Shown: positions 41,001-61,907, numbered from the stretch's first letter. The stretch: 64,000 nt of DNA from Solirubrobacterales bacterium (GCA_035264245.1 DATFQO010000049.1:1731-65730); one strand, 5' to 3'. Notes: generated from the letters alone by a model not told the origin. Translations and numbers: made by a program.

Positions 41001-41065
41001 TACGTCTACATGCCCGCGAGCGGCGAATCGGTTCCCATTTCAGTCTGGTGCAACACCATCCACGT

Positions 41066-42109
41066 TCAGCGGGGACCCCGTACGAGCTCACATCGCCCAT
41101 CGCGCAGGACGTCCTTCCGGTCGGCCACCGCTTCGTCCGCGCCCGTGCCACAGCTGATCGCATCGGCGCCTCCGCGGCGGGCGTCGATGTAGTCGTCGCC
41201 GGAGCCGCCGGAATAGGAGTCGGGCGGAATGTCGGGCCGCTCGGCTGAACGTCCTTGGCCGTAGATGAAGTCGGCGCCCGGCCCGCCGACCGTGAGGTCG
41301 GAGCCGGCGCTTGGATAGAGGAAGTCGCGCCCGCCGCGGCCAAAAAGGCGGTCGGGCCCCACGCCACCCTCCAAATGGTCTTCCCGTTCGGTGCCGAGCA
41401 ATGCGTCCTTGCCGTCGTCGCCCGCGAGGAGCAGGGAGCGGACCAGGCCGCGATGACCGTCGAAGCTCCGAGCGTCGAGCACATCGCCCCCGCCCCCGCC
41501 ATGAAGCTTCAATTCAACCGTTTGCGGCGGCGCGCTGAGGATCAGATCGGGGTCCAGCGCGTCGCCCTCGGGCCAGGACCCGAGGCTCACCGCCAGGCGG
41601 CCACCGACGCCGTCGACGCGGATGCTGTCACGCCCGTCGCCGGCGAGAATCTGTACGTGGGGGCGGGCCTGCGGCTGTGGCGGCAGGACCACTTCGACCT
41701 CGATCTCCGAGTCGACGGCCTCCGGGCTCGCCCCGGGTCCCAGCGGGCCCTCCCGCTCGTCGAGGAGAATCTGGTGTTCCCGCCGCAGCGGCAACGGGAC
41801 TCCCCGGTACACGACCCGGTCGATGTTCGTCACCGTCGCCTCCTGACCGCAGGTCACCGGCTCGAAGTCGCGGGGCCCGTTGCCGGCGCTGGTGCCGACG
41901 AGGATCAGGTTCCCCTCGCGCCGAACCTGAGCGTTGTCGTTGCCCGTGACCTCGAGGAAGTTGCCGGCCGCCCCCGGTGGCCCGCCGTCGACGTATTCGC
42001 AGTCGAGCCAACGCGGCTCTGCCCGCGCCGAGACCGGCATAAGGGCCAGGGCAAGAAGGGCAACCAAAGGGGCGAACAACAGGGATTGGGTGCGGAGATT
42101 CCGTTGCAT
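41066..42109 (-). CDS. secreted calcium-binding protein with RTX/hemolysin-type repeats
   Basis: Signal peptide from MQRNLRTQSLLFAPLVALLALALMPVSARA. C-terminal nonapeptide-like repeats (GGGGGDVLDA, GDDGKDALLG, GGVGPDRLFG, GGPGADFIYG, GGSGDDYIDA). Confidence 0.7.
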   Translation of the reverse strand: MQRNLRTQSLLFAPLVALLALALMPVSARAEPRWLDCEYVDGGPPGAAGNFLEVTGNDNAQVRREGNLILVGTSAGNGPRDFEPVTCGQEATVTNIDRVVYRGVPLPLRREHQILLDEREGPLGPGASPEAVDSEIEVEVVLPPQPQARPHVQILAGDGRDSIRVDGVGGRLAVSLGSWPEGDALDPDLILSAPPQTVELKLHGGGGGDVLDARSFDGHRGLVRSLLLAGDDGKDALLGTEREDHLEGGVGPDRLFGRGGRDFLYPSAGSDLTVGGPGADFIYGQGRSAERPDIPPDSYSGGSGDDYIDARRGGADAISCGTGADEAVADRKDVLRDGRCELVRGPR

Positions 42110-42172
42110 TTCATTCACGGTGACAAGAAAAGGTGACCCGAATCGAGCCAAGATTGGCCCGAAGCAGCCAGC

Positions 42173-42730
42173 TCAGACGAGCACCAGCTCGCAGTAGCTG
42201 CCGGCGACGAGGTCGTCGTCCCCCACTCCAAGAGCGTTCCGCAGCTCCCCGAGAACCTTTTCGCGGCCGGCTCGGTCGCCGCCGGCCGGATCCGCCAAGG
42301 CCTCCAGCTCGATGAAGCGACCCAATCCCTCCACCCGGTCGAGGTGGATCCGGACTCCGTCATAGAGGAAGAGGCGCCTGGTTTTCCGTACCTCCACCAC
42401 GACTCCCAAGGCGGCGGACAGAGCAGCCTCGAGTTCGGCCGCCGCAATCACCGGCATGACGCGATAGCGACTCGCCTTTACTCCCTGGTCGTCGGGGCGC
42501 TCGTAAGCGATCAGCTGAGCGATGCCGTCGTTCTCATATCGCAGCTTGAGGCGGCCGTGGGGGACGCTGAAATAGACGTCCCGCTGCCGCAGAACCCCTC
42601 CCCCCTCGGCACCGAGCTCTTCGCATGCCCGCACGGTGCGCTCAGGCGCGGAATCCCGCGCCTTCAGCTCCAGATTGAGACTCTCGTCCACGGACTGCAG
42701 GCTAACACCCGCGCAAAAGGTTAAAACCAT
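42173..42730 (-). CDS. CYTH domain protein / class IV adenylate cyclase (CyaB-like)
   Basis: LELKAR ... QRDVYF ..GRLKLR .. LIAYERPD ... KTRRLFLYDGVRIHLDRVEGLGRFIELEA. The start is uncertain (ATG 42730 or GTG 42691). Confidence 0.8.
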   Translation of the reverse strand: MVLTFCAGVSLQSVDESLNLELKARDSAPERTVRACEELGAEGGGVLRQRDVYFSVPHGRLKLRYENDGIAQLIAYERPDDQGVKASRYRVMPVIAAAELEAALSAALGVVVEVRKTRRLFLYDGVRIHLDRVEGLGRFIELEALADPAGGDRAGREKVLGELRNALGVGDDDLVAGSYCELVLV

Positions 42731-42977
42731 TCATCTGTCTATAAAGAACCATGCACACTTTCGATCTAGATCGCTCCGAGGCCGAATCGAGCTTCCGCTG
42801 CCGGCTTGATTCGCGGCCCTGCGCCACTTGCCGCTCGCCGCGCGGCTACCTCGTCCGCCCCGGCCGCCACGCCTTCCGGCTCCACGCACCGACACAGCTG
42901 GAAACCGAGATTCCACTCCCGCTGCCTTCCACTTCAGGGTTCGCCGGGCAGCCTGAGTGCTGACAGCGTCTGGTGAC

Positions 42978-44009
42978 TTACGCAGCGCTCCTGCTTCGCC
43001 ACATTTTCATGAAGTAGAAGCCGCTTATCAGCACGGCAGCCGCCCACAGGAGGGTCAGCCATACACCCGGCAGCCCAGACCGCCCCTCATCCGGAGATGC
43101 GACTTCCCCATTCAGGATCGCCACCGGTTGATTGGCGTTGGCCGCGAGGGCCTGAAGTTCGAGCTTGAACTCTCCGGTCTTCTTGCCGACGACGCGGAAT
43201 ATGCCGCTCCTCCTTCCAGTCAGGTCACCGAACCAAATCGTTCGTCGACCGACGATCCGGAATTCGTCCCCTGGTATCAATATCTCGACCCCAACCCCGT
43301 GCGCCGGGGCGTCGCCGATGTTCTCGAGATCGAAGCCGACCTCGAACTCCTGGCCGACTCTGGGCACCTGCTCCGGCTCGTCAGGCTCCAGCGCAAGTTG
43401 CGCGCGATAGGTATCGCTTACCTCGAGGCCCGAGCTCGGCAAAACGACGGCTCGATCGAGCTTGATACCGCCGATCTTCTGCAGCACGAACTGCAACCGC
43501 GTCCTCCCCGGCTTGACTCCGCAAAAGGGAAGGTAATTGGAGAACTTCAGACGCTGGGTCCGATCCTTCACCCTTCGACTGCGGATGCCGTGGATCAACT
43601 CCGTGGTGTTCCAGCTGATGATCGGAGTCCGTCCGGGTCGCCGCCGGACATGCACGTTCATCTGCGCACTGGGGCATCCGTTCGTGATGCCGCTGATAAC
43701 CGCCACCCCACTACCGCTGAATCGGCTCACCTCCAAGAGCAGGTTCATATGGATGAGATAGGACAATGATCGGGGGGACGGCTGCCGCGGCTGACTGGCG
43801 GCCGGCGGGAAGGCCACCGGAACCGATCGTCGCCCGACCTTCCCCTCCACCGGCAGGCGAAGCCCGGTCGCACCGAGCTCCGGGAGCGTCCAGCTGCCCT
43901 GCCCGTGCAGTACGACCGGGCTGTCTTGCTCACCAGCCGCGGCTGGGGCAGCCGCCAGCGAGCCGGCAACCGCCACGGCAACCGCCAAAGCCAAACCAGC
44001 AGGCTTCAC
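42978..44009 (-). CDS. membrane-anchored surface protein with CARDB-like domain
   Basis: Signal peptide MKPAGLALAVAVAVAGSLAAAPAAA. CARDB-like segment VGQEFEVGFDLENIGDAPAHGVGVEILIP. C-terminal TM WLTLLWAAAVLISGFYF plus basic tail. Last gene of the giant-protein operon. Confidence 0.6.
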   Translation of the reverse strand: MKPAGLALAVAVAVAGSLAAAPAAAGEQDSPVVLHGQGSWTLPELGATGLRLPVEGKVGRRSVPVAFPPAASQPRQPSPRSLSYLIHMNLLLEVSRFSGSGVAVISGITNGCPSAQMNVHVRRRPGRTPIISWNTTELIHGIRSRRVKDRTQRLKFSNYLPFCGVKPGRTRLQFVLQKIGGIKLDRAVVLPSSGLEVSDTYRAQLALEPDEPEQVPRVGQEFEVGFDLENIGDAPAHGVGVEILIPGDEFRIVGRRTIWFGDLTGRRSGIFRVVGKKTGEFKLELQALAANANQPVAILNGEVASPDEGRSGLPGVWLTLLWAAAVLISGFYFMKMWRSRSAA

Positions 44010-44037
44010 CGAGGGTTCGTCGCCCTAGGGTCGGGCA

Positions 44038-45669
44038 TCACGGGTTGTACGTGTACCCAAGTGACATCTCCGTCGTCTGACCTTCGCAATTAGATTGGGC
44101 GGAGACGAAATGTCCGCCCGGATACCAGCAGCGGTAGATCTGAAGCGTGGGGACCCCGGGAGGGGGAGAATCGTAGGCGTACCCCTCTAGCGCGAGGTAC
44201 TCCTGCCCCTCGCAATTACGATTAAGACTGATGAAGTGATCTCGGGCGCTGGCGTTGTGCCTGCACGAATAAAGCGGGTGGCGATTCGCCGCATAACCCT
44301 GAACCAGCTGCCCCATGAAGCCCTCGAGGGTGGCCCCGGCTGGACCTCGGCCAGTCGTCACATGATGGTCGACTCCTCCGCCGAGGTATCGTCGGAGTGG
44401 GCCGGAGCCCTTCAGGTATCCCAGGGACCCCCGGATCGGATAGCTTTCGCACGTCGTGCTCTCGAAGATCTCATTGCCTATCCGGCAGCTTTTCAACGGA
44501 GTGGAAGCGGCCACGCTCTGCGACGTGTAAATGTAACCTACGATCCCATCATTGTCACCAGGGTCGCAACTCACGTCCCGAGAGAGGAAGTGTTCAGTTG
44601 CGTTCTCCTCACATTCGTAAAGTGGTGCGGTCCCGGGTACGAGACTCGTCTCAAGGAATCCGAGCGTCCCCTCGACGACGTCGTAGGTGGAATCAGCTTT
44701 TCCCGTGGTGACCCAGTGGTCCCCACTCCCCCCTCCTTCGTGGTAGTTGTAGTAGCGCGTCAACGCCGCGGAGGGATAGGGGTTGAATGGTTCCCCAGGA
44801 GGGACGGTGCTGGCGCTGGCAGCTGCATTGAGGACGATCCGACTCGCCCTACCGTCGCTCAGCCAGATGTGATTACCATCCGTACGGCCCGTCAATCCGG
44901 TGCCCTCAACGGGGAACCCATCTCCAACCTCACGATTTGCCATCCACACCTTGTCAGAGTAGACGGCCCTGACTCCTGAAGATAGCTGGCGGGCCTTTGC
45001 TACAACCCAGTTCTCGACCCTCTCGCTGTTGCCGAACCATTGGAACCCGTGGTTGTAGTGGAAAGTGTGGCCGGCTACCGTCCACTGACACTCATTGTGG
45101 TCCTCGTGCGAGGTCGCAAATACGTAGTAGGTCCACTGCGGCGAATACATTGAGTCTGCGCGTGCTCCGCGATAGTCGAGGGGCTCTCGTGGAGCATAGA
45201 TACGGATATGGTGGGTTCCTTTGTTTGGGCCTGTCCCAATATGAAGGTCATCCTTGGCGCTGCACCCGTAATCCTTCATTCCCTTGTCGGTGTCGCAGAA
45301 CCCATGGGTGCTGTCGGACGCACAGCCGGTCATCGGGCTACGCGACTGCTTCCAAATGAAATCCGGGATCGGCTCGTCGTTCGTCTGGGAAATGTGGTGC
45401 GGAAAGAACGGGCTGAAAACGCTGTTGACGATCGGAACCGATGCTCCGTTCGTGAAGAAGAGATTGACAGGCCAATCGTATTCCTTGATCTCCCCATCTT
45501 CGAGCTTGTAATCGTAGTTGAGGATTCTGTCCTCTCGAATCGGCTGGTAGCCCGGGAAATTGTTAGGCGTTGCCGCAGTTACCTGGCGCAACCCAACAGC
45601 AACCGGCAGGCTCGCCACCAGCACGAACAAGACGACACCGACCAGAGTGAGTCTTGCGTTCTGGCTCAT
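44038..45669 (-). CDS. secreted protein: His-rich N-terminal domain of unknown fold plus five Cys-containing DUF5648-like repeats
   Basis: ATG at 45669 overlaps the upstream stop (TGATG). Signal/anchor LTLVGVVLFVLVASLPVAVG. C-terminal repeats of type PLY.C......DHF.S....CEG......GY.Y. Confidence 0.65.
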   Translation of the reverse strand: MSQNARLTLVGVVLFVLVASLPVAVGLRQVTAATPNNFPGYQPIREDRILNYDYKLEDGEIKEYDWPVNLFFTNGASVPIVNSVFSPFFPHHISQTNDEPIPDFIWKQSRSPMTGCASDSTHGFCDTDKGMKDYGCSAKDDLHIGTGPNKGTHHIRIYAPREPLDYRGARADSMYSPQWTYYVFATSHEDHNECQWTVAGHTFHYNHGFQWFGNSERVENWVVAKARQLSSGVRAVYSDKVWMANREVGDGFPVEGTGLTGRTDGNHIWLSDGRASRIVLNAAASASTVPPGEPFNPYPSAALTRYYNYHEGGGSGDHWVTTGKADSTYDVVEGTLGFLETSLVPGTAPLYECEENATEHFLSRDVSCDPGDNDGIVGYIYTSQSVAASTPLKSCRIGNEIFESTTCESYPIRGSLGYLKGSGPLRRYLGGGVDHHVTTGRGPAGATLEGFMGQLVQGYAANRHPLYSCRHNASARDHFISLNRNCEGQEYLALEGYAYDSPPPGVPTLQIYRCWYPGGHFVSAQSNCEGQTTEMSLGYTYNP

Positions 45670-48600
45670 CAGTATTCCCATCCATTCGGGTCGATTTCGA
45701 ATCCTTCGAGGGTTTCGGGGCTATAAGTGACTTCGCCGGCTTCGTCGGCGACCGGTTCGATCATCACTACTTCGCCGCCGACAAGATTGCCGTTAACGTC
45801 GGTTTCCGCATCCAGCTGCACGATCAGGGTCGTCACCTCGGTGGCCGCAGCTTTCATTTCTGCTTCCAGGTACGTGCCCTCCGCGTAGTAGCTCGGATCC
45901 TCCAAGTCATAGCCAATCACGGGCCATACCCTGTCCTCCCAGTCATGGGGGGTGACCATCGCCACCGTTGCGGTGACACCCACTAGGTTGGTCGTTTGAG
46001 TGGCCGTCGTCTCCGTCCAGGGCCCAACGGTCATCGCGTAGTTGTCACCCTGGATCGCCGACTGGAAGGCTGGGTCGGCCGCGATCAGCGTCTGCGCTTC
46101 TTCAACCTGTTCTTCGGTCAGTGTGGGCGCTGGATCGGTGAGCTCCAAGGCCGGCTCTCCGCTCTCCGGCGTGGCCGAAATGTCCGGCGTGCTGAGCGCC
46201 AAGTCGGTCTGCGTGCCGGAATCGAAGCTCGTGCCGACGGCCGCGCAGTCCGCTGCCGCTGGACATGAAATCGCACTCAGCTTGCTGTTAGGGGTGCTGA
46301 TGCCGTTAGCTCGGTTAGGGGTCGGCTCCACGTACCAGCCTGTTCCGTTCCAGCTCATCGCCAGCGTGTGGAAACCAGAAGCTTCTTTCGCTTGGTAATG
46401 CCCCACCGCCACACACCGGCCCTGGCCGAAGCAGGAAACATCGCTGAGGTAGGTGGCCGTTGCGTTTTCAGGAGCTGGGATGGCCAATTGGTTCCAGCTG
46501 GTTCCGTTCCAACTCACCGACAACGGGTAGGAAGACACCCCGATCGTGTATTGACCGACCGCTTTGCAGCTGGTGTTGGACTGACAGTCCACCCCCATCA
46601 CTTCGGTCCCGGCACTCGCCGGCGCATCCGCTACCGTCACCACGGACCAGACAGTCCCGTTCCATCGCTCGCCCAGTGGCCGCTTTACCCCGCTGGCGTC
46701 CTTGTAGGTGCCGACCGCCATACAGCTGTTCGAGGCCGGACAGGACACGTCTTCCAACCAGGCCTGGGTCGCACCGGCCGGAAGTGGGGCAGTCTGCGTG
46801 GACCACGACGTGCCATTCCAGACCTCGATCAGGACTACGGCTTTGGAGGCGCTCGTGTATCTGCCTACAGCTACGCAGCTGTTGCTCGACGGGCATGACA
46901 GCCCAGCGAGAGAATGCGCACTTCCCGTGGGGTTCGGCGTGGGCAGTACGGACCACTGGATCCCATCCCAACGCTCTGCCAACGTGCCCGCGGCCTGAGA
47001 TCCGACGGCAGTGCAGGAGCTCAGGCTCGCGCATGCGACGTCGAGGAGCGAGCCTTCCCGAACACCGGGCATCGCCTGTGCCGTCCAGCCGGAGTCTTCG
47101 AGCTGCCACGCCACCTCCGTTCGATCCGCTAGGCCGGATTCGATCCTGCCCACGGCCATGCAGCCCGCCTGAAGGCAGGTGATTCCTGCAAGGCCTGACA
47201 TCTCCCCTCGGTTGTCAAGCTCGGCGCCCCAGATCTGAACCAGGGCTCGTTTCTGGACTTTTTCGTCGCTGAAGTTGCCCACCGCCAAACAGGGCGAGGT
47301 GGAGCCCCCGTAGGTTCCGCAAGAGACGCCCTGCGGACTCGCCCCGCTGAATGGGTACGGTTCCTCGACCGTGCTATTGGCCCACGCCGTCCCGTTCCAC
47401 GCCTGAATCAGCTCCGTGAGCGGGATGCCAGACACCTGGGACACGCCGACTGCCACGCAGGACGTGGATGACGTGCAGGTGACGTCCCTCAGTTCACTTC
47501 CGTATCCGCTGAGACCGTTCGGAGTGCCTACGGTCGTCCACACCGTCCCGTTCCAGATCACTCCGCGCGTTTTTCGTTCCGTGCTGATCGTGTCGTAGCC
47601 GACTGCGGCGCACCAAGTCGTAGACGTACAGGCGACACCTGTGAGGGCGCTTCCTTTCGATTCGCTGTTGATCGGAATAGCCACCGCCGACCAGGAAGTC
47701 CCATTCCATTTCATCGCGAGGTTCTTGGCGGTGGATTCCGTATAGGTGCCAGTCGCCATACAGAAGTTTGTTGCGGTACAGGAGACGGCTTGGAGTTCGC
47801 TGGGAACCGTGCTACCGCCAGGGGCCGGAGTCGCCACAACGGACCACGCCGATCCATTCCAGCTCATCGCGAGGGTCTTTTTCACGCCGGAAAGGGTGTA
47901 ATCGCCGACCGCGGTGCAGGAAATGGCGGAGACACAAGCCACTCCCGTCAGCTCGCTTGCCGTCGCCCCTGCCGGCGAGGGCACTGAAGCGATGGACCAC
48001 GCCGTACCGTTCCATTCCATCGCCAGTGATTTCTTTACACCCGAAGAGGTGTAATTACCAACGGCCGTGCAGCCGGTCGCGCTTGAACAATGGACGTCCA
48101 CCAGCTCGGTTGCTGACGCACCGGCGGGTTTGGGGGTGCTGGCAATGGTCCAGTCGCCGGGGTACCCCGTTGCGGAAAACGGCCCAGCCGCCCCCGATAC
48201 GGTGGCCTTACCCACCGCCACGCAGCTCGCGGAAGCGAAGCAGAAGACATCACGCAGTTCGCCGCTGGATGCCCCGCTTGGTTCGGCTGAGGAATCGACA
48301 GCCCAGGTTGCGCCCGACCAATTCGCCACGATGACCCGGCGGGTCGCCCAGTTGTCGAGGTGATCGCCGATTGCCATGCAGCCAGTTCCCGAGAGACAGG
48401 CGATCGATCGCAGGCTCCATTCATCGGTTTTTGCAGGCTCGGGAGCCCGGCCCAGAGTCCAAGCTCCACCGGTGCCGTTGAGCACCAGTCCCTGACGGTG
48501 CCCGGCCTCGTCGGCGTACTCCCCTACCGCAACGCAGGCGGAGGGGGAGATGCAGTCGACCCCGAAGAGCTTCGTCCACCGCGATTCGCCCGGACTCGGC

Positions 48601-50561
48601 AACGAGATGGCGGACCAGGACGTCCCACCGCTCCAGCGGAGGTTGAGGCCATGAACGATGCCTGACGGGTCCCGGTAGCTGCCTACGGTCGAGCAGAAGG
48701 TGGGGCCAGCGCAGCTGATTCCGGTGAGGGCGGTACCCAGTGCACCAGTTGGCTCCGCCGGAAGCGAGGCGATCGACCACGCCGAGCCATTCCAATCGAG
48801 AGCCAGCTGATGGGTGGTGTTGCCGTCTTCGAAGATGCCAACCGCCTTGCAAAGGGCGGTGCTCGTGCAGGACACGTCTTGTAGCGATACACCGACGGCG
48901 CCGCTCACGGTGGGAGTCGACGCGATCGACCATGCGGTGCCGTTCCAGCTCATCGCCAAGGCGCGCTTTTCCCCTCCCGAATCGACATAGCGCCCAACCG
49001 CCGCACAGGAACCGGTGACGCACGAGACCCCGGACAGATGGCTGGCCAGCGAACCGCTCGGAGCGGGAGTCGTCCCGCTGGACCAGGCGGTTCCATTCCA
49101 GGTGACGCTGAGAGAACGTTCGCTTCCGGTCGAATCGAGGTAGACACCGACCGCGACGCAGTCGGAGGTGCTGCGGCAAGCCACACCCTCGAGGGCGGTC
49201 GATTTGGCACCAGCGGGAAAGGGGACATATTGCGCAGCCCAGGTAAATCCGGTCCAGCGCTGTATGAAAGCCCGTTCCACGTCCCTGCCGCGCTGGTAGG
49301 TGCCGACCCGAATGCACCACGAGAGTGAGGCGCAGGCAAGTCCCATCCTTTCGGCAGCACCGCTCTGCCCCGGAGACTGGTCCGACCAGGTCCGCTCGTA
49401 GCCGCCTGCTTCGGTCAGAGCCCACCCCGTCCCGTCGTATCTGAGGGCGAGGTTGCGATTGGCGGCGACATGGCCGTAAACAATTGACCCGCTGGCGTGA
49501 CAGAACGTTTGCGTTAAACATGCGACAGCGGTCAAATCGCTCCCGACCGCACCGACGCTCGAGATGTCCACGGACTGCAGGCTCCAGGAGGTTCCATTCC
49601 ACCACAGCGCATGCGGAAGATCGTCCTGCCCTTTGTGGAAGGTACCTACCGCGGAGCAGACCGAGGCAGAGCTGCAGGAGATTGCTTTGAGCTGGCTGCT
49701 GGTCCCGGACGGCTCCGGCGCCGACATGATCGTCCAAGTGCTGCCGAGCCACTGCACCGCGAAAGACTTCTGGATTCCGACGGAATCGAAATAGCTACCT
49801 ACTGCCTTGCAGTTGTTGGTAAGGCACGAGACTCCGGACAGGGACCCGAAGGTCGCGCCACTGGGTATCGGGATTGAGCTGGTTGACCAGGAGGTGCCGT
49901 TCCACGAGAGTGCCAGTGGTTTCGTTACCCCCGTTGAATCGGCGTAGTTCCCAACCGCAAAGCATGAGGTCGCACTGGAGCAGGAAATCGAGCTCAGATC
50001 GTTCGATTTGGAACCGCCGATGTTCGGCGAGGAGGCGACGCTCCATGAGCCTCCGTTGAAACTGATTGCGAGCGTCTGTCGAGCATTGGACGAGTTCACG
50101 TACGTCCCAACCGCCTTACAGGCCGAAGCGGAGGTACAAGCGAGGTCCGTAAGCCAGCTTGCCTTCGTACCGCTGGGCTCGGAAACAGTGGAGACCGTCC
50201 ATGCGGAGCCGTTCCATGCCATAGCCAGAGCGTGTTTCACGTTCATGCCATCGGTAGCGCTCCCAACCGCGAAGCAGGTGCTTGCCCCGGGGCAAGCAAC
50301 GCCCGAGAGAGAGCTGAGGCTGGCCCCGTCCGGCACCGGAGTGGTCTGCCTGGCCCACACCGTGCCATTCCACGCTGCGGCCTGCACCTGACTCGTCCCG
50401 ATCACATCGGAGCCTCCCACGGCAATGCAACTACTTGACGACGGGCAGGCCATATCCGCGAAATCACTCGTGGCGGATGCGGCGGCGGGTGCGAAGAGCA
50501 GCAACAGACCCAGGACCAACGCCAGTCGAGCAGTCCAGACCGTCTTTTGACCTGGGTTCAT
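45669..50561 (-). CDS. giant secreted repeat protein (1630 aa, about 27 repeats of ~48 aa)
   Basis: ATG at 50561 gives MNPGQKTVWTARLALVLGLLLLFAPAAASA. Repeat consensus L.gVSC.S...C.AVG.Y......k.LA..WNGT.WS....P.P.G. Non-repetitive acidic ~170-aa C-terminal domain. Confidence 0.85.
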   Translation of the reverse strand: MNPGQKTVWTARLALVLGLLLLFAPAAASATSDFADMACPSSSSCIAVGGSDVIGTSQVQAAAWNGTVWARQTTPVPDGASLSSLSGVACPGASTCFAVGSATDGMNVKHALAMAWNGSAWTVSTVSEPSGTKASWLTDLACTSASACKAVGTYVNSSNARQTLAISFNGGSWSVASSPNIGGSKSNDLSSISCSSATSCFAVGNYADSTGVTKPLALSWNGTSWSTSSIPIPSGATFGSLSGVSCLTNNCKAVGSYFDSVGIQKSFAVQWLGSTWTIMSAPEPSGTSSQLKAISCSSASVCSAVGTFHKGQDDLPHALWWNGTSWSLQSVDISSVGAVGSDLTAVACLTQTFCHASGSIVYGHVAANRNLALRYDGTGWALTEAGGYERTWSDQSPGQSGAAERMGLACASLSWCIRVGTYQRGRDVERAFIQRWTGFTWAAQYVPFPAGAKSTALEGVACRSTSDCVAVGVYLDSTGSERSLSVTWNGTAWSSGTTPAPSGSLASHLSGVSCVTGSCAAVGRYVDSGGEKRALAMSWNGTAWSIASTPTVSGAVGVSLQDVSCTSTALCKAVGIFEDGNTTHQLALDWNGSAWSIASLPAEPTGALGTALTGISCAGPTFCSTVGSYRDPSGIVHGLNLRWSGGTSWSAISLPSPGESRWTKLFGVDCISPSACVAVGEYADEAGHRQGLVLNGTGGAWTLGRAPEPAKTDEWSLRSIACLSGTGCMAIGDHLDNWATRRVIVANWSGATWAVDSSAEPSGASSGELRDVFCFASASCVAVGKATVSGAAGPFSATGYPGDWTIASTPKPAGASATELVDVHCSSATGCTAVGNYTSSGVKKSLAMEWNGTAWSIASVPSPAGATASELTGVACVSAISCTAVGDYTLSGVKKTLAMSWNGSAWSVVATPAPGGSTVPSELQAVSCTATNFCMATGTYTESTAKNLAMKWNGTSWSAVAIPINSESKGSALTGVACTSTTWCAAVGYDTISTERKTRGVIWNGTVWTTVGTPNGLSGYGSELRDVTCTSSTSCVAVGVSQVSGIPLTELIQAWNGTAWANSTVEEPYPFSGASPQGVSCGTYGGSTSPCLAVGNFSDEKVQKRALVQIWGAELDNRGEMSGLAGITCLQAGCMAVGRIESGLADRTEVAWQLEDSGWTAQAMPGVREGSLLDVACASLSSCTAVGSQAAGTLAERWDGIQWSVLPTPNPTGSAHSLAGLSCPSSNSCVAVGRYTSASKAVVLIEVWNGTSWSTQTAPLPAGATQAWLEDVSCPASNSCMAVGTYKDASGVKRPLGERWNGTVWSVVTVADAPASAGTEVMGVDCQSNTSCKAVGQYTIGVSSYPLSVSWNGTSWNQLAIPAPENATATYLSDVSCFGQGRCVAVGHYQAKEASGFHTLAMSWNGTGWYVEPTPNRANGISTPNSKLSAISCPAAADCAAVGTSFDSGTQTDLALSTPDISATPESGEPALELTDPAPTLTEEQVEEAQTLIAADPAFQSAIQGDNYAMTVGPWTETTATQTTNLVGVTATVAMVTPHDWEDRVWPVIGYDLEDPSYYAEGTYLEAEMKAAATEVTTLIVQLDAETDVNGNLVGGEVVMIEPVADEAGEVTYSPETLEGFEIDPNGWEY

Positions 50562-50827
50562 CTCAGCACCAGACGTCGCATCATGACCCTCCGAAATGCA
50601 CACTTGCAACTCATTGGCGAAGCCCCCCTGCGAACCAGACGCATTTGCATCGTTGGCGAGATTGATAGACAAACACATGTTCTTGTGAAGGAAGGAACAT
50701 GGTTTTAGTTACGGGATCTATACCACAAATCTAGATCCAGCTCTAACTCGGGTCCGATCACCGCCAAGCAGGGAAGGGTCGACTTGGCTCACACGCTACG
50801 GCGGCCCACGGAAACCGTGATCTATCC

Positions 50828-50856
50828 TTGACAAAACCTTTGACTAGGACTAGGTT
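50828..50856 (+). promoter_or_regulatory. near-consensus sigma-70-type promoter TTGACA-N17-TAGGTT
   Basis: TTGACA 50828-50833, 17-nt spacer, TAGGTT 50851-50856. No protein gene lies downstream on this strand, only the leader-like segment and the terminator. Confidence 0.45.
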
Positions 50857-50861
50857 GTCTT

Positions 50862-51030
50862 GGCAGCTGCTTCGGGGAGGACTGGCCGATGGCGAGCCCC
50901 CGGCGTGTCCGGACAACGGTTTCCCTGCCGCTCCGGGTTTAGGGCTGCACCCCACCCCGGCTACCTCGCCTTCCCTGTCGAGGTGAGCCCGTAAAACGAC
51001 TCCCGGTTCCCCGCCGGGGGTCGTTTTATG
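50862..51030 (+). ncRNA. candidate ~165-nt orphan transcript homologous to the TetR gene leader (sRNA or deletion scar)
   Basis: Lies between the 50828 promoter and the 50993-51027 terminator. Four colinear blocks are shared with 61780-61917 (see findings). Only a 3-codon ORF (GTG AGC CCG TAA, 50983-50994) sits where the TetR start aligns. Confidence 0.3.
50993..51027. terminator. bidirectional intrinsic terminator
   Basis: AAAACGACTCCCGG / loop TTCCCCG / CCGGGGGTCGTTTT: a 14-bp stem (one G-U) with an A-run on one side and a T-run on the other. It lies 11 nt past the stop of the 51038 gene on the minus strand and is also correctly oriented for the plus strand. Confidence 0.75.
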
Positions 51031-51037
51031 GGGGCTC

Positions 51038-51823
51038 CTATCCGCGCGCGCGGCAGCTGCGGATCAAGGTGGAGCTGAGGGTCTTGCCACCGTCGAAGCC
51101 GAAGCTCGTCCGCGCAAGGGGGAAGACGGCGCTCGAAAAGCCGGCGGGGGCAGGACAGCCGGCGAGGAGGTAGCTGCGGCTGCGGCCGCCGGCGCGGAAG
51201 CTGCGACCCAGGGTGAGCTGGATGCCGGTGACGAAGCCGGCCTGGCCGGTGACTTGCGGCAGCGAGGCGCTCAACGTGGTCGCAAAGGTGCCCTTGGCGT
51301 GGCCGATGAACAGGGGCAGCGTGTAGGAGGTGGGAACGGGGTCGGTGCCGTAGACGTGGGCAAAGATCACCGGGCGGCCGCCTTCGACGCCGTTGAAGGC
51401 GATCACCTTGCCGCGCGAGGGGAAGGGAGCCTGGCCGGGGATCGCGACGTTGGCGGAGAAGCGGCCTTCCCCCACCTTCGCGCCGCGGCAGGCCGCCAAC
51501 GCCTTCTGGGTCGTGGAGGGCTGGATCTGTTCGAGCCTGCAGGCGGGGAGGCCCTGGCGGTCGATGCGGCCCTCGCGGTTGATCGCGATCTCGATGCGAC
51601 GAAGCTGCGGCGGTTCGGAGCCGTCGGCGGTGGTGATCCTGCCGCCGATGCGGACGGTGACCGGGCGGGTGCCCTGGCGGGGCAGCTCGTGGGGAGTCAG
51701 CTGGCCGTCGAACTTCACCCGCAGACCACCCTGTTGGGCGGTCTCCGCCTCAGAGGCCGCGGCGAAGGCGGCGAGCCCCGCAAAGGCGACAAGGCCCGCG
51801 AGCTTGAGCGAGCGCAGCCTCAT
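51038..51823 (-). CDS. secreted protein C1 (single Cys-pair module, unknown family)
   Basis: ATG at 51823 forms an ATGA overlap with the B1 stop. Signal peptide MRLRSLKLAGLVAFAGLAAFAAASEA. Clear paralogue of 63225-63998. Confidence 0.75.
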   Translation of the reverse strand: MRLRSLKLAGLVAFAGLAAFAAASEAETAQQGGLRVKFDGQLTPHELPRQGTRPVTVRIGGRITTADGSEPPQLRRIEIAINREGRIDRQGLPACRLEQIQPSTTQKALAACRGAKVGEGRFSANVAIPGQAPFPSRGKVIAFNGVEGGRPVIFAHVYGTDPVPTSYTLPLFIGHAKGTFATTLSASLPQVTGQAGFVTGIQLTLGRSFRAGGRSRSYLLAGCPAPAGFSSAVFPLARTSFGFDGGKTLSSTLIRSCRARG

Positions 51824-54729
51824 CGCCGCCCGCGCTTTCGCTTGTGCTGCTTGTGCTTGGCGCATTTGACGGCGATCGGCGGCGCCGATATCGCGGTGGA
51901 GTTGTCGTGGGCGATGAAGCGGGCGCTGGCCAGTTGCGGGGCGGAGCAGAGGTTCTCGGAGTTGACGAGCAGGCCGTGCTTACCGCCGGCGAGGTTCATG
52001 GTGAACTTCGTGACGGGGGCATCAGGCAGGAGTTCGAAGGTTCCGCGCAGGCCGCCCCCCCGCGCCCTGTCGATCCGGCCCACGACTTCGACCTCGAAGC
52101 CCTGGCCGGAGAGATAGGCGACCACGTCAGGTAACAGGTTGGTCGAGGAGCGCAGGTAGACGGGGCCGCTGAGCGGTTCGGCGAGCAGTGGAGTGAGAGC
52201 TCTGGCGTAGCCGATTCGCGAGTTGGCTGGACAGGTCTTGGCCCGGAAGCGTGGCATCGTGCAGACCTGGCCGATGTGCTCCTGGGCCAAGAAGACCGAG
52301 TTCGGCAGGCTGACTGCAACTGACTTCAGGTTGGGGTCGCCGGGGCGGGGCGTGTAGGTGGCTTTCAGGGCCGGGTAGCGCCCCCGCTTCGTGCCACCCT
52401 TCAGCTTCAGGTGCAGCCTCGGCTTGAAGATGAACCCGGAGCAGTCGCTGAGCTGGAAGCGATCGCTGCTGGTAGTGGCGGGGTCGTCGGCAGGGCTGTA
52501 GAGATCCAGGCCGGCGCCGGTCAGGGTCGAGATGGTCGTGAGCGGGTCGCAGTTGGTCGGGTTGAGCGTGAAGTCGGGGCGATCGACGTCGACGCGGATA
52601 TCGCGCAGGTGGATCGGGATGCCCCTGATGATGTGGGGGATCGGATCTGAGCCGGCGGAGTCGATCGAGGCTTGCGCGCTGCGGGGGTCGATGCGGATCG
52701 CCGAGCGCACCACGACCACTCCGAGGTCGAAGGGACCGACAACGGCCGAGTCGATCGCAACCGTGGAGAGTTGGGCGCCGTGGTAGGGGCCGGCGAGGTA
52801 GAGGGCACCGGGGGCATATGCGAGGGTCCCCCCCACTCCGTAGCCGGCGAGGGTGGTGCCGATTCGGCTGGAGGCGGGGCAGCTGGGCCCCGCCAGCTCT
52901 TCGGCGCCGCCGTGGATTCCGGTGCGGGCCCGGGCGGCGGCGATCGCGGAGTCGGGGCAGACCCCGACCCCGGCCAGCTTCGCCAGGAGGCCCGGTGGGA
53001 AGGTGGCCGAGTAGGAGGTGATCTCCTGCTCGGCGTCGGTGCGGGTCATGCGCAGCTCGAAGGGCGAGTAGAAGCCGGCGGTGGGATTGAGCGAGCCTGC
53101 CTCCAGGCCCGGGTGGAAAGGCGGCAGGCCCGGGGGCGGGCACTCGCCGCCGTCGGCGCCGCGGTTGATCGGGAAGCTGGAGAAGCTCTCGAGGCGAAGG
53201 CCCGGGTCTGACCAGGGCCAGTAGTGCAACTGGGCGATGTGGGCGCCGCAGGTCGGTGGGGAGACCATCGCCGCGCGCTGGCCTTCGCGCAGGTTCAAGG
53301 TGAAGAGGTCGTAGTGGATCGGGGGCAGGTCTTCGAAGCTGACCACCAAGCGCCCGGTGGCGGGGTCGGGCTCGGCCTTGCCAAAGGACTTGAAGTAGAG
53401 ACCGCGGCGCGGCGAGGAGAGGGTGATGTAGAGCGCTATCAGGTTCTTGGCGGGGTTGGCGAAGGGGGTGGCGAGGAAGACCGAGCCTTTGAGGACTGCG
53501 GGAAGGCCTAGCAAGCCGTTGACAGAGACGGTGCCGATCTTCGAGTTGTTGGGGCAACCCGAACCCGGGAGCGAGGTGGCGCTCTCACGGACGAACTCGG
53601 CTTCGGAGCAGGTTCCGAGACCGGCGCCGAGGGACGGGTTGATGCTGAGCCCTTCGGGCAGGAGGGCGCTGACCCGTTGGATCGGCGAGCGGACCCGGCC
53701 GTTGACGTTGAGAAAGCCACCGCCGTCGTTGACGTTCAGCTCGAAGGCGATGCCGGTGGCCGCGGCGGCGCGATCGGTGAGCAGACGCAGCCTCGGGATC
53801 GCCAACACCTCGATGCAGTCGCTGACGGTGAGCGGGTCACCGCCGCTATCGCGGGAGAGGACGTTCCTGTGCTCCGCGCCGCCCTGCCAAGAGCTGACCG
53901 CCGCGCCCCATTGCAGCTGCCCGCCGCAGGTGGTGGGCAGGGTCAGGTAGGAATGGATGTGGTCGAGCGAAAGCGAGATGAAACAGGTGCCCGCGTGGAA
54001 TTCCGGGTCAGTGCTTGGATAGCGCCGCTCGATCCCGTCTTTCCAGTAGGAGGCCTCACCGTTGAAGTCGGCCGGGCTCACCTCGTTGAGGCAGTTGCCG
54101 CGTTCGACGTCGTATTTGTATTCCCACGGGGTGCCCCAGAGGGTGAGGTCGAGCGACTGGATGTTCAGCGCCTGAGTGAGGTTCTTGAGCTCGAAGTCGA
54201 GGGTGGCTTGGTCGCTGCGGTAGCGCCCGGCGAGGATCACCGGCACCCCGAAGGGGGCGAAGCCGATCGCCTCGGCGCTGCCGAAGGGTGCGGCGAGGTT
54301 GAAGAGGCCGAAGTGGCGGGTCGTGCCGCCGGCGCCGCCGGTGTGGACGGCGACGACGCCGATCTGGCTGGAGCCGGGACAGCTCTCCCCGGAGAGGCTC
54401 GCTTCGTAGGGAGAAGAGCGCCGGGTGACGAACTCACCGGCGGAGCACTCGTCGAGGGCGGCAGGGTTGGCGATCACACCGGCGGGGAGGGTAAGCCGGA
54501 GGTCGCGCAGGTCACCGTCGCTGTAATCGCCGGCCGTGTTGAGGGCAAGGTGGACCTGAAGCAGGTCAGGATGGGTGCCGGCGCCGCTCACCGGCGCGCC
54601 TTCACGCTCGATCGCGACGTCGAAGCCTTCAGGGCCTGGGAGCAGGCCAAAATCGGCGCTGGCGCTGGCCGGGGCGATAACCACCAGGCCCAGCGCGGCC
54701 AGGGCCAGCCACAGCGCCGGGTGCCTCAT
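51820..54729 (-). CDS. large secreted protein B1 (four Cys-pair modules, polybasic C-terminal tail, unknown family)
   Basis: ATG at 54729 forms an ATGA overlap with the A1 stop. Signal peptide MRHPALWLALAALGLVVIAPASASA. Paralogue of B2. Tail KCAKHKQHKRKRGRR. Confidence 0.8.
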   Translation of the reverse strand: MRHPALWLALAALGLVVIAPASASADFGLLPGPEGFDVAIEREGAPVSGAGTHPDLLQVHLALNTAGDYSDGDLRDLRLTLPAGVIANPAALDECSAGEFVTRRSSPYEASLSGESCPGSSQIGVVAVHTGGAGGTTRHFGLFNLAAPFGSAEAIGFAPFGVPVILAGRYRSDQATLDFELKNLTQALNIQSLDLTLWGTPWEYKYDVERGNCLNEVSPADFNGEASYWKDGIERRYPSTDPEFHAGTCFISLSLDHIHSYLTLPTTCGGQLQWGAAVSSWQGGAEHRNVLSRDSGGDPLTVSDCIEVLAIPRLRLLTDRAAAATGIAFELNVNDGGGFLNVNGRVRSPIQRVSALLPEGLSINPSLGAGLGTCSEAEFVRESATSLPGSGCPNNSKIGTVSVNGLLGLPAVLKGSVFLATPFANPAKNLIALYITLSSPRRGLYFKSFGKAEPDPATGRLVVSFEDLPPIHYDLFTLNLREGQRAAMVSPPTCGAHIAQLHYWPWSDPGLRLESFSSFPINRGADGGECPPPGLPPFHPGLEAGSLNPTAGFYSPFELRMTRTDAEQEITSYSATFPPGLLAKLAGVGVCPDSAIAAARARTGIHGGAEELAGPSCPASSRIGTTLAGYGVGGTLAYAPGALYLAGPYHGAQLSTVAIDSAVVGPFDLGVVVVRSAIRIDPRSAQASIDSAGSDPIPHIIRGIPIHLRDIRVDVDRPDFTLNPTNCDPLTTISTLTGAGLDLYSPADDPATTSSDRFQLSDCSGFIFKPRLHLKLKGGTKRGRYPALKATYTPRPGDPNLKSVAVSLPNSVFLAQEHIGQVCTMPRFRAKTCPANSRIGYARALTPLLAEPLSGPVYLRSSTNLLPDVVAYLSGQGFEVEVVGRIDRARGGGLRGTFELLPDAPVTKFTMNLAGGKHGLLVNSENLCSAPQLASARFIAHDNSTAISAPPIAVKCAKHKQHKRKRGRR

Positions 54730-59482: not shown

Positions 59483-59541
59483 GGAAGGGTCTCCTTGGTC
59501 CAAAGTCGAGAAGCCGGTAGTCAGCGCCTGCTCACGACCCC

Positions 59542-61605: not shown

Positions 61606-61726
61606 CTCTCTCTCCTTGTGTCTCGAGGGCCCCCTGGTGGCCCTTTTCCCTTAGGGCGGCGGCTACCCGAGCCGCCTCCCTTCTCCTGCCATCGCCCGAA
61701 CACCGGCCGTATGGAAAAGCAGCGGT

Positions 61727-61756: not shown

Positions 61757-61779
61757 GGATGAGTTCTGGTTTCCCGGAA

Positions 61780-61815: not shown

Positions 61816-61907
61816 GGATCTGCGCTGCAAGCCGGATCGAACGCCGATGGGAGCTCCATTTAGAAGTACCGGTGTACCCTTGAGCACCCACGCCTCCGGA
61901 GGTCGAG

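What the first reader, a model, noticed from the sequence alone, without database searches (positions are those of the whole stretch)
45669..50561. 1630-aa secreted protein built from about 27 Cys-pair / WNGTxW repeats
The repeat unit is about 48 aa. It reads L.gVSC.S...C.AVG.Y (two Cys 4-6 residues apart), then a variable loop, then LA.(S/M)WNGT(A/S)WS, then P.P.G.

I count 27 W/F-N/D-G-x-x-W cores, enough for roughly four 6-8-bladed propellers. The WNGTxW core resembles the Asp-box/BNR signature (S-x-D-x-G-x-T-W) but does not fit it.

The DNA copies have diverged and there are no long identical repeats, so the array is old and under selection. A non-repetitive acidic ~170-aa domain ends the protein, and it has no basic tail or anchor. 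I do not recognise this repeat family.
Basis: partly seen in the sequence, partly recalled or inferred. Interest (0 to 1): 0.7.

Follow-up and report, generated by a model that had tools for sequence, protein, structure and literature searches.

The report
Four-propeller secreted protein, shortened Asp-box repeats
This is a real 1630-residue secreted protein from an uncultured soil actinobacterium, built from 28 disulfide-stapled blades that fold into four seven-bladed beta-propellers; the repeat is a diverged, so far unmodelled branch of the known Asp-box (BNR/sialidase-type) propellers, and its acidic tail ties it to two conserved partner genes of unknown function.

Summary
The ORF (window 45669-50561, minus strand) has a signal peptide, 28 units of about 51 aa (not 27 of 48), and a 157-aa acidic C-terminal domain (CTD). 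All 56 cysteines sit in 28 C-x4-5-C pairs.

AlphaFold2 models are confident (pLDDT 84-85). They give four strands per unit and seven units per propeller. In 243 relatives the unit count is nearly always 14, 21 or 28.

No Pfam, NCBIfam or PDB sequence match exists. The family is nevertheless a derived Asp-box propeller. It aligns unit for unit (33% identity, E 1e-16) with a Legionella protein that has the same Cys pair but a canonical SxDxGxTW and passes Pfam BNR_2. WNGTxW is that Asp-box with one residue deleted, and it sits in the same strand 3-4 hairpin.

The family is very large: 60,035 cluster representatives, mostly from Solirubrobacterales and Acidimicrobiia MAGs.

No blade-specific polar residue is conserved, so I read the array as a non-catalytic binding scaffold.

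The CTD always precedes a gene for an uncharacterised His/Asp/Cys-rich domain (X), with a membrane-anchored protein (Y) nearby. CTD and X are fused in one metagenomic ORF. The likely role of the CTD is docking the array to X/Y.

Verdict: a new variant of a known kind, of moderate interest.

The parts
45669..50561 (-). CDS of the 1630-aa secreted four-propeller protein, stop codon 45669-45671 included. The ORF extends upstream to an ATG at 50678. NCBI record HKF82315.1 calls it a hypothetical protein from a Solirubrobacterales bacterium.
50472..50561 (-). Signal peptide, aa 1-30 (n-region K/R, hydrophobic core, AAS-A cleavage-type end)
   Evidence: Read directly from the sequence. pLDDT is below 50 for aa 1-30. 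No signal-peptide predictor was available.
49410..50471 (-). Propeller 1, units 1-7 (aa 31-384)
   Evidence: AF2 gives 4 strands per unit with pLDDT mostly above 90. Unit alignment.
49353..49409 (-). Disordered linker between propellers 1 and 2 (aa 385-403)
   Evidence: pLDDT below 50 for aa 385-403. Unit 7 carries an 11-residue insert.
48261..49352 (-). Propeller 2, units 8-14 (aa 404-767)
47196..48260 (-). Propeller 3, units 15-21 (aa 768-1122). It was not modelled. It is inferred from the unit count and the rule of seven.
46188..47195 (-). Propeller 4, units 22-28 (aa 1123-1458). Unit 28 lacks the WNG hairpin.
   Evidence: AF2 model 2, pLDDT mostly above 90. Unit alignment.
46143..46187 (-). 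Low-confidence linker, aa 1459-1473
   Evidence: model residues 346-363 have pLDDT below 50
45672..46142 (-). Acidic C-terminal domain (CTD), aa 1474-1630. Predicted as two helices followed by four long antiparallel strands. Net charge about -29. This is the element that defines the link to X and Y.
44038..45681 (-). Partner gene X (547 aa). It has an N-terminal signal or anchor, a conserved His/Asp/Cys-rich domain (aa ~41-300) and Cys-containing C-terminal repeats. Its start overlaps the array's stop codon (TGATG).
42978..44009 (-). Partner gene Y (343 aa). It has a signal peptide, a beta-rich ectodomain, and a C-terminal transmembrane helix with a basic tail.
50562..51037 (-). Upstream non-coding or leader region. 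A terminator-like hairpin at 51002-51023 ends the preceding gene, so the array-X-Y genes form their own transcription unit.

Best explanation
The gene encodes a Sec-secreted protein made of four consecutive seven-bladed beta-propellers, joined by flexible linkers and ending in a small acidic alpha/beta domain (CTD).

Each 51-aa unit is one four-stranded blade.
- The invariant Cys pair flanks the strand 1-2 turn. It most likely forms one disulfide per blade, 28 in all (inferred).
- WNGTxW is the strand 3-4 hairpin. It is an Asp-box that has lost one residue (shown by alignment to a canonical Asp-box relative).
- So the array belongs to the Asp-box (BNR/sialidase/GH74/Ycf48-type) propeller lineage.

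Everything conserved across the family is scaffold. No blade-specific polar residue is invariant. Relatives place the same 7n-blade array next to Rhs toxins, subtilases, LamG lectin domains, FN3 arrays and dockerins. I therefore read the array as a non-catalytic, multivalent extracellular binding platform (inferred). Its ligand is unknown.

The protein has no anchor of its own. Its CTD is always encoded directly upstream of gene X, a membrane-associated protein with a conserved His/Asp/Cys-rich domain. Gene Y, a protein with a C-terminal transmembrane helix, is always nearby. In other loci the CTD stands alone, and in one it is fused to X. The likeliest mechanism is that the CTD docks onto X (and Y), holding the propeller array at the cell surface or pairing it with X's activity (inferred from gene fusion, gene order and translational coupling).
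For: Architecture:
- 28 units.
- AF2 models have pLDDT 85.4 and 83.9, with 4 strands per unit and a disordered linker after unit 7.
- Unit counts in 243 relatives are 14 (134 proteins), 21 (27) and 28 (5). Where FN3 domains interrupt the array, the units come in blocks of exactly 7 or 14.

Asp-box descent:
- tblastn of the family consensus hits the Legionella 'sialidase family protein' WP_125466284.1 (E 5e-7).
- Its blades read SASCSGATCIAAGYY...SADSGATW...PALPSG, and it passes the Pfam BNR_2 threshold (40.1 bits against a cut-off of 31.4).
- BLASTP of the query against it gives 33% identity over 354 aa, E 1e-16, in register. It pairs N with D, opens a one-residue gap, then pairs G with G and W with W.
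- hhalign of single-unit profiles gives E 1e-4 in the same register.
- The motif lies between strands 3 and 4, as published for Asp-boxes and short Asp-boxes (PMC2716378).
- Foldseek top hits include GH74 tandem propellers (E 1e-13), Ycf48 and sortilin.

Non-catalytic reading:
- The invariant columns of a 21-protein, 14-unit alignment are only C, G, W, A, L, P and V.
- Between orthologs, scaffold positions are 84% and 76% identical, while loops sit at background level, 63% and 44%.
- There is no FRIP motif.
- Fusion partners are all extracellular.
- Precedent: CyRPA has a sialidase fold, one disulfide per blade and no enzymatic activity, and it works as a scaffold in a complex (PMC5349852).

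CTD-X-Y link:
- The triad is present in the window and in L001, L002, L003, L004, L051, L086 and L091, each in a different genomic context.
- The CTD stands alone upstream of X in L089, L090 and L093, and is fused to X in L094.
- The array's stop codon overlaps X's start as TGATG.
Against: - No ligand, binding site or conserved surface patch was identified. 'Binding scaffold' rests largely on the absence of catalytic signatures and on domain context.
- Foldseek matches are generic for 7-bladed propellers. Kelch and CylK rank as high as Asp-box proteins for the single-propeller model.
- No Pfam BNR model hits the query itself or the family consensus.
- The S/T at position 1 of the Asp-box is not conserved in this family (R 33%, S 14%).
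- About 90% of family members lack the CTD, so the docking idea covers only this sub-family.
- The CTD-X interaction is inferred, not shown. The CTD could equally be a chaperone or inhibitor of X.
- X and Y have no detectable homologs of known function.
Confidence: 0.6

Rival explanations
1. The array is an enzyme. It could be a GH74-like or novel glycoside hydrolase, with substrate held in clefts between adjacent propellers, as in GH74 xyloglucanases.
For: - The top Foldseek hits are GH74 tandem 7-bladed propellers.
- Family members always have at least two propellers.
- Some 14-unit relatives end in a dockerin.
- From my own knowledge, that matches the architecture of the dockerin-bearing Clostridium thermocellum Xgh74A.
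Against: - No sequence similarity to any GH74 or other PDB chain, even with a profile.
- No invariant acidic or other polar residue at any specific blade in the 14-unit alignment.
- The blades are minimal and regular, without the long irregular loops that build GH74 clefts.
- The inter-propeller linker is predicted disordered and pTM is only 0.55.
- Counts of 21 units (three propellers) do not fit an obligate pair.
Confidence: 0.12
2. The CTD is not a docking tag. It is a pro-domain-like chaperone or inhibitor of X, which would be a hydrolase. The propeller array then merely targets or regulates X's activity on a substrate.
For: - In L094 the CTD directly precedes X in one polypeptide, like an N-terminal pro-domain.
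- The CTD is predicted as a small helix-plus-sheet domain.
- X has invariant His, Asp, Glu and Cys residues (H118, H152, D154, E157, C100, H231) that suggest catalysis or metal binding.
- Translational coupling implies 1:1 production.
Against: - X matches no enzyme family in Pfam or PDB.
- The CTD fold could not be searched on its own, because the propeller dominated the Foldseek results.
- The role of Y is left unexplained.
Confidence: 0.15
3. The protein is a passive structural or surface-coat component, such as an S-layer-like or matrix protein, with no specific ligand. The repeats only provide a stable, protease-resistant, disulfide-rich bulk.
For: - Very high copy number of the family, with several paralogs per genome.
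- Only scaffold positions are conserved.
- S/T/A/G-rich composition.
Against: - The same array is fused to Rhs toxins, proteases, lectin domains and dockerins. That is the typical position of a targeting or binding module, not a lattice former.
- No self-assembly domain was recognised.
Confidence: 0.1

Closest known systems
Asp-box (BNR) beta-propellers: GH33 sialidases, GH74 xyloglucanases, Ycf48, the sortilin Vps10 domain (Quistgaard & Thirup 2009, PMC2716378)
   Same: - Four-stranded blades with a conserved hairpin motif in the strand 3-4 loop.
- Seven-bladed propellers, in tandem as in GH74.
- Demonstrable sequence homology through a Legionella intermediate that passes Pfam BNR_2.
   Different: - The motif is x-W-N-G-(T/S)-x-W: one residue shorter than S-x-D-x-G-x-T-W, with Asn for Asp, no conserved Ser, and an added Trp.
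- It occurs in nearly every blade, and the blades are very regular. Classical Asp-box propellers are irregular.
- Every blade has a Cys pair.
- No catalytic residues are conserved.
- Arrays reach 28 or more blades.
- No BNR Pfam model detects it.
Short Asp-box (s-Asp-box), S/t-x-D/n-x-x-x-W/f/y (PMC2716378)
   Same: The D/N-to-aromatic spacing is the same (three residues between), and so is the location in the strand 3-4 loop.
   Different: - The published s-Asp-box lacks the Gly and is usually found in only one or two blades.
- Here Gly is 91% conserved directly after Asn, the S/T is not conserved, and the motif is in about 24 of 28 blades.
Legionella longbeachae plasmid pLLO-F1157CHC 'sialidase family protein' WP_125466284.1
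   Same: - Same blade plan: L..SC-x4-C.A.G.Y, loop, LLA, hairpin, P.LPSG.
- 33% identity over 354 aa, in register.
   Different: - Canonical SADSGATW Asp-box and a 56-aa period.
- A single propeller of 7-8 nearly identical blades (94% identity), so recently amplified.
- From a gammaproteobacterium.
- No CTD, X or Y.
Plasmodium falciparum CyRPA (PMC5349852)
   Same: - Sialidase or Asp-box-lineage propeller with one disulfide inside each blade.
- No enzymatic activity.
- Acts as a scaffold within a multi-protein extracellular complex.
   Different: - Six blades, a single Asp-box, eukaryotic.
- No detectable sequence similarity to the query. There is only a sub-threshold Pfam CyRPA hit on the Legionella intermediate (E 0.027).
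Pfam DUF2510 (PF10708) and DUF6087 (PF19565)
   Same: The family consensus and some relatives hit the C-terminal half of DUF2510 (positions 14-34, the ...WDGxxW... piece) and a short stretch of DUF6087.
   Different: - The hits cover only 15-35 residues of a 51-aa unit.
- The query itself gives no hit at E up to 1.
- Neither model describes a propeller blade or the Cys pair.
- Both are of unknown function, and no paper in the library mentions them.

Membership tests
BNR/Asp-box repeat (Pfam PF02012, PF13088) | Repeat consensus S-x-D-x-G-x-T-W | tested here: not met
   The family logo is x-W(84%)-N(67%)/D(14%)-G(91%)-T/S-x-W(99%). It is one residue shorter, and position 1 is R/S/H. Only unit 12 (RWSGGTSW) keeps the canonical length.
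BNR/Asp-box repeat (Pfam PF02012, PF13088) | Motif forms the hairpin between strands 3 and 4 of a four-stranded propeller blade | tested here: met
   AF2 DSSP example: strand 109-116 ends at W116 and strand 121-124 starts at W121. The pattern repeats in each unit. The published location is in PMC2716378.
BNR/Asp-box repeat (Pfam PF02012, PF13088) | Significant match to the curated profile | tested here: not met
   No BNR, BNR_2, PSII_BNR or Sortilin hit for the query at E up to 1, nor for the family consensus at E up to 10.
BNR/Asp-box repeat (Pfam PF02012, PF13088) | Homology to a bona fide member | tested here: met
   BLASTP E 1e-16, 33% identity over 354 aa, in register, with a Legionella protein that scores 40.1 bits on BNR_2 (cut-off 31.4) and carries 8 canonical S.D.G.TW boxes. 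hhalign of single units gives E 1e-4, probability 58%.
GH74 xyloglucanase | Two tandem seven-bladed propellers | tested here: met
   AF2 model of aa 1-770 and Foldseek E 1e-13 to 6mgl, 6p2n, 7kn8 and 2cn2. TM-scores are only about 0.33 because the relative orientation of the domains is uncertain.
GH74 xyloglucanase | Sequence membership and the catalytic Asp pair in the inter-propeller cleft | tested here: not met
   No PDB sequence hit, even with a profile. No invariant acidic residue at any specific blade in the 14-unit alignment.
GH33 sialidase | Six-bladed propeller with an N-terminal (F/Y)RIP motif and catalytic Arg triad, Tyr and Glu | tested here: not met
   The propellers have seven blades. 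There is no RIP motif in the protein. There are no invariant Arg, Tyr or Glu columns.
Kelch, YVTN, WD40, PD40 repeats | Match to the curated repeat profiles | tested here: not met
   No Pfam hit at E up to 1. Kelch domains appear only as generic fold matches at 9-16% identity.
DUF2510 (PF10708) | Full-length match to the 35-residue model | tested here: not met
   Only model positions 14-34 match, and only in the consensus or in relatives. There is no hit in the query.
CTD-X-Y three-gene module (defined here) | An acidic CTD encoded immediately upstream of an X-domain gene, with a Y gene (C-terminal TM helix) adjacent | tested here: met
   Window genes are 45669-50561, 44038-45681 and 42978-44009. 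The same triad occurs in L001, L002, L003, L004, L051, L086 and L091. CTD-X adjacency or fusion occurs in L089, L090, L093 and L094.

The most novel reading that the evidence does not exclude
CTD + X + Y may be a previously undescribed cell-surface module of soil Actinomycetota and Chloroflexota. In it, a portable acidic alpha/beta domain (the CTD) couples interchangeable passengers to a membrane-associated, enzyme-like protein X and a transmembrane partner Y. The passengers seen here are propeller arrays of 14 to 28 blades, LamG-propeller chimeras, other domains, or nothing at all. This would be a new protein display or activation system. The Cys-stapled, shortened-Asp-box array would be its main ligand-binding cargo, and would also be a very large propeller family still missing from the Pfam and NCBIfam copies searched here.
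Probability: 0.3. Interest if true: 0.65.

Novelty: new variant of a known kind. Interest (0 to 1): 0.5.

Why it matters
- **Annotation gap.** A profile of the array finds 60,035 cluster representatives at 50% identity, and 20,961 of them at E<=1e-30. In GTDB species genomes the scan confirmed at least 518 matching stretches; of the best 80 loci, most are in uncultured Solirubrobacterales, Acidimicrobiia and related soil lineages. Yet Pfam and NCBIfam give nothing, and NCBI calls the protein 'hypothetical'. A single blade model would annotate a large block of actinobacterial secreted-protein dark matter.
- **Propeller evolution.** The Legionella intermediate documents a clear transition: a canonical Asp-box became a one-residue-shorter W-N-G-x-x-W hairpin that then fixed in every blade, together with a per-blade Cys pair. 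The strict 7n arrays (14, 21, 28 blades) are a clean natural example of amplification by whole propellers.
- **New functional lead.** The CTD-X-Y gene triad, including a CTD-X fusion, gives a concrete and testable handle on how such anchorless giant proteins may be held at, or used on, the cell surface.

Tried and rejected
- Pfam, NCBIfam and PHROGs on the query and neighbours gave nothing useful. The exceptions were a sub-threshold DUF2922 hit on the CTD and one PHROG of unknown function.
- PDB sequence search with the protein and with a 14-unit profile found no propeller hit. The only matches were dockerins contributed by relatives in the alignment.
- The search for related loci with the broad alignment A1 failed because it has no conserved 7-10 column stretch. 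A synthetic family consensus used as the query solved this.
- I tried to learn the CTD fold by Foldseek of the propeller-4-plus-CTD model against PDB and BFVD. The propeller dominated every hit, so nothing was learnt about the CTD.
- X and Y against PDB (single sequence and profile) and Pfam at E up to 10 gave nothing. Word-indexed homolog searches for X returned only 5-6 proteins, all hypothetical.
- By eye, X's N-terminal domain recalled LssY_C, its C-terminal repeats recalled DUF5648, and Y recalled a CARDB-like Ig domain. No profile supported any of these, so I do not claim them.
- Phage genomes gave no tblastn match to the family consensus.
- Literature searches for the motif strings, DUF6087 and DUF2510 found nothing relevant.
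- I considered the NG(T/S) sequon as an N-glycosylation site. I rejected it as the primary explanation: T/S is only 73% conserved and sits in a structural hairpin homologous to the Asp-box. It was not tested.
- I considered the Cys pairs as metal sites. I rejected this because there are only two Cys per blade, on either side of one beta-turn, in a secreted protein.

Full report
**1. What is in the sequence**

The minus-strand ORF 45669..50678 contains an ATG at 50561. From there a 1630-aa protein begins with a textbook Sec signal peptide, MNPGQKTVWTARLALVLGLLLLFAPAAASA. It has no lipobox and no twin-arginine.

After the signal peptide come 28 units, each with a Cys pair. Most pairs are C-x5-C, four are C-x4-C and one is C-x9-C. 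They start at aa 39, 90, 142 ... 1433, with a median spacing of 51-52 aa. An HMM built from the units finds all 28. All 56 cysteines of the protein are in these pairs.

The strict [WFY][ND]G..W core occurs 19 times, by hand count from the list. A relaxed pattern gives 23. Units 13, 15, 21, 22 and 28 are degenerate.

The copies are old. Mean pairwise identity is 33% and the maximum is 61% (units 16 and 17). The longest exact DNA repeat is 19 nt, and Tandem Repeats Finder sees no array.

The last 157 aa are non-repetitive and very acidic, with 31 D/E against 2 K/R.

The region from 42 to 52 kb has lower G+C (0.58-0.65) than the rest of the window (about 0.70).

NCBI holds this protein as HKF82315.1, a 'hypothetical protein' from a Solirubrobacterales bacterium MAG.

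**2. Fold**

I made two AlphaFold2 runs with family alignments.
- Residues 1-770: mean pLDDT 85.4, most 10-residue blocks above 90.
- Residues 1115-1630: mean pLDDT 83.9.

Every unit is four beta-strands, that is, one blade. The Cys pair flanks the turn between strands 1 and 2. W-N-G-T-x-W spans the turn between strands 3 and 4; for example, one strand ends at W116 and the next begins at W121.

Independent evidence says seven units make one structural module.
- In 243 family proteins the unit count is 14 in 134 cases, 21 in 27 and 28 in 5. Most of the rest are one short, at 13 or 20.
- In relatives where FN3-like domains interrupt the array, the units come in blocks of exactly 7 or 14. P0024, for example, reads 7+7+7+7.

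The protein is therefore four seven-bladed propellers on flexible linkers. The pTM of 0.55 means the relative orientation of the propellers is not defined. Propeller 3 was not modelled and is inferred.

**3. Which propeller lineage**

No curated model recognises the protein. Pfam and NCBIfam give nothing at E up to 1. phmmer and a 14-unit profile find no PDB chain apart from dockerins contributed by some relatives. Relatives and the family consensus give only fragmentary hits to DUF2510 (the ...WDGxxW... half) and DUF6087.

Foldseek places the two-propeller model nearest to GH74 xyloglucanases (E 1e-13), then CylK, Ycf48 and sortilin. The single-propeller model matches CylK, Kelch (KLHDC2), Ycf48, DAIP and GH74 about equally well. 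Fold alone is therefore not decisive.

The decisive link came from tblastn of a family consensus against plasmids. A Legionella longbeachae plasmid protein, annotated 'sialidase family protein', has 56-aa blades that read FLQSASCSGATCIAAGYYSTGSGSYPLLARSADSGATWTYAIDSSTPALPSG.
- It has the same L..SC-x4-C.A.G.Y start, the same LLA strand and the same P.LPSG end as the query's units.
- It carries a canonical Asp-box, SADSGATW, eight copies in all.
- It passes the Pfam BNR_2 gathering threshold, 40.1 bits against 31.4.

BLASTP of query residues 1-770 against it gives 33% identity over 354 aa with E 1e-16, unit by unit. It aligns 'TWN-GTAWS' with 'SADSGATWT': N to D, a one-residue gap, G to G and W to W. 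hhalign of the two single-unit profiles finds the same register (E 1e-4, probability 58%).

Quistgaard and Thirup (PMC2716378) describe the Asp-box as the strand 3-4 hairpin of propeller blades. They also describe a one-residue-shorter 's-Asp-box', S/t-x-D/n-x-x-x-W. The family logo from 1910 units is x-W(84%)-N(67%)/D(14%)-G(91%)-T/S-x-W(99%). It has exactly that spacing, but it keeps a Gly, lacks the conserved Ser and adds a Trp.

This is a derived Asp-box. It fails the BNR motif and profile tests, but it is homologous to bona fide members.

Chromosome-sized records of Embleya and Nonomuraea in the plasmid collection carry relatives. The Embleya copy, which I read, lacks the Cys pair (D.WAVG...WNGTSW).

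**4. How big and where**

A profile of the 14-unit alignment finds 60,035 cluster representatives (50% identity clusters) at E<=1e-3, and 20,961 at E<=1e-30, among 1.84 billion.

The best 80 loci are all in MAGs. Most come from Solirubrobacterales, Acidimicrobiia/Acidimicrobiales, Gaiellales and other Actinomycetota. A few come from Chloroflexota, Chthoniobacterales and Burkholderiales bins. Some genomes hold several paralogs. Phage genomes gave no match.

The array is fused to many extracellular partners:
- Rhs/YD-shell toxins, where it sits N-terminal after the signal peptide;
- subtilases;
- LamG/ConA-like domains;
- FN3 arrays;
- SGL/NHL and RCC1 propellers;
- dockerins.

**5. What it probably does**

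Across 21 diverse 14-unit proteins the invariant columns are only Cys, Gly, Trp, Ala, Leu, Pro and Val, which are scaffold residues. Between the query and its two orthologs (69% and 54% identity) the scaffold positions are 84% and 76% identical. The strand 2-3 loops (63% and 44%) behave like all other non-scaffold positions (58% and 41%). There is no FRIP motif and no blade-specific carboxylate.

A glycosidase active site is therefore unlikely, despite the GH74-like architecture and the dockerin-bearing relatives.

The domain contexts place the array where targeting or binding modules normally sit. CyRPA is a precedent: a sialidase-fold propeller with one disulfide per blade, no activity and a scaffold role in an extracellular complex (PMC5349852).

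I therefore favour a non-catalytic, multivalent, disulfide-stabilised binding platform. The ligand is unknown. This part is inference.

**6. The C-terminal domain and its partners**

The array gene is followed by gene X (547 aa, 44038-45681) and then gene Y (343 aa, 42978-44009). The array's stop codon and X's start overlap as TGATG, with an alternative ATG 13 nt upstream.

X has three parts:
- an N-terminal hydrophobic anchor or signal;
- a roughly 250-aa domain with invariant D29, N38, D90, K96, C100, H118, R120, H152, D154, E157, S179, E180, N209 and H231;
- Cys-containing C-terminal repeats.

Y has a signal peptide, a beta-rich ectodomain and a C-terminal TM helix with a basic tail. Neither X nor Y matches Pfam, NCBIfam or PDB.

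The same three genes accompany CTD-bearing relatives in otherwise unrelated genomic contexts.

| Locus | Array | Note |
|---|---|---|
| L001 | 28 units | |
| L002 | 28 units | |
| L003 | 21 units | X domain at the N-terminus of a 2549-aa FG-GAP protein; Y upstream |
| L004 | 14 units | X is a stand-alone 219-aa protein |
| L051 | at least 18 units detected | |
| L086 | called gene is 451 aa (6 units + CTD) | |
| L091 | 21 units | |

The CTD occurs in only 23 of 243 family members. None of the 79 CTD-less loci showed X or Y within their 3-kb flanks. The short flanks limit that negative result.

Searching metagenomes for X gave more. A CTD profile hits stand-alone 200-250-aa proteins directly upstream of X in L089, L090 and L093. 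In L094 a single 945-aa ORF carries a CTD-like domain (aa 528-624, E 7e-8) followed by X (aa 698-935, E 2e-29).

The CTD is therefore a portable domain whose constant neighbour is X. The propeller array is one of several passengers.

Fusion, fixed adjacency and translational coupling argue for a physical CTD-X partnership. The simplest reading is that the CTD docks the anchorless array onto membrane-associated X and Y. The alternative is that the CTD acts as a pro-domain-like chaperone or inhibitor of an X enzyme.

AF2 predicts the CTD as two helices plus four long antiparallel strands. Its fold could not be searched on its own.

**7. Verdict**

Four seven-bladed propellers is right. 'Unrecognised family' is true for the curated libraries, but the repeat is a diverged Asp-box lineage.
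- Novelty: a new variant of a known kind.
- The family's size, its absence from Pfam and NCBIfam, the clean evolutionary intermediate and the CTD-X-Y module together make it moderately interesting (0.5).
- Confidence is high for architecture and lineage, moderate for the non-catalytic binding role, and lower for the docking mechanism.

Noticed in passing
window 42978-45681 (-); L001, L002, L003, L004, L051, L086, L089-L094: There is a conserved module made of the acidic CTD, an X-domain protein and a Y protein with a C-terminal TM helix. The CTD is found at the end of propeller arrays, as a stand-alone small protein, or fused to X (L094 ORF 312-3146). X and Y have no known homologs.
   Followed up: partly
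window 45667-45681: The stop codon of the array gene overlaps the start of gene X (TGATG; an alternative ATG lies 13 nt upstream). This indicates translational coupling.
   Followed up: yes
window 51820-61605 (-): A duplicated two-gene module of secreted proteins with almost no family matches. The 993-aa and 1096-aa proteins are paralogs (36% identity over 967 aa). The 533-aa and 687-aa proteins are paralogs (27%), and the 687-aa one gives a trace PD40 hit.
   Followed up: partly
window 42001-52000 and 58001-62000: G+C drops to 0.58-0.65, against about 0.70 elsewhere. The array-X-Y genes lie in the first low-GC stretch and sit in different genomic contexts in relatives, which suggests horizontal movement of the cassette.
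   Followed up: no
L087:829-2925 (Legionella longbeachae plasmid pLLO-F1157CHC): A 'sialidase family protein' with 7-8 nearly identical (94%) 56-aa blades, each with a Cys pair and a canonical Asp-box. It is a recently amplified propeller, and it is the evolutionary intermediate that links the query family to BNR.
   Followed up: yes
window 48615-48641 (aa 641-649, unit 12): Unit 12 reads RWSGGTSW, which keeps the canonical eight-residue Asp-box length. All other units have the one-residue-shorter form.
   Followed up: no
window 44041-44781 (X, aa ~300-547): The C-terminal half of X holds 3-4 repeats of the form lY.C....dHF.S....C..q....GY.y. There is no Pfam match. In L003 the X domain is instead followed by about 2200 aa of FG-GAP repeats.
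   Followed up: no
L088:1687-4020 (Embleya sp. NBC_00888): A cultured actinomycete carries a Cys-less cousin of the blade (D.WAVG ... (W/Y)(N/D)G.(S/A)W). It is unannotated in the PLSDB table.
   Followed up: no
L086:5440-9013: In this locus the array gene is called as only 451 aa (6 units plus CTD), with broken ORFs upstream. It could be a pseudogenised or mis-assembled array, next to intact X and Y genes.
   Followed up: no
window 51002-51023: A GC-rich hairpin followed by a T-run on both strands (terminator-like), between the upstream 275-aa gene and the array gene.
   Followed up: no
window 37212-42151 (-): Further secreted repeat proteins lie downstream: a DUF5122 beta-propeller protein (37212-38741), an RTX calcium-binding repeat protein (41066-42151) and a CYTH-domain protein (42173-42730).
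   Followed up: no
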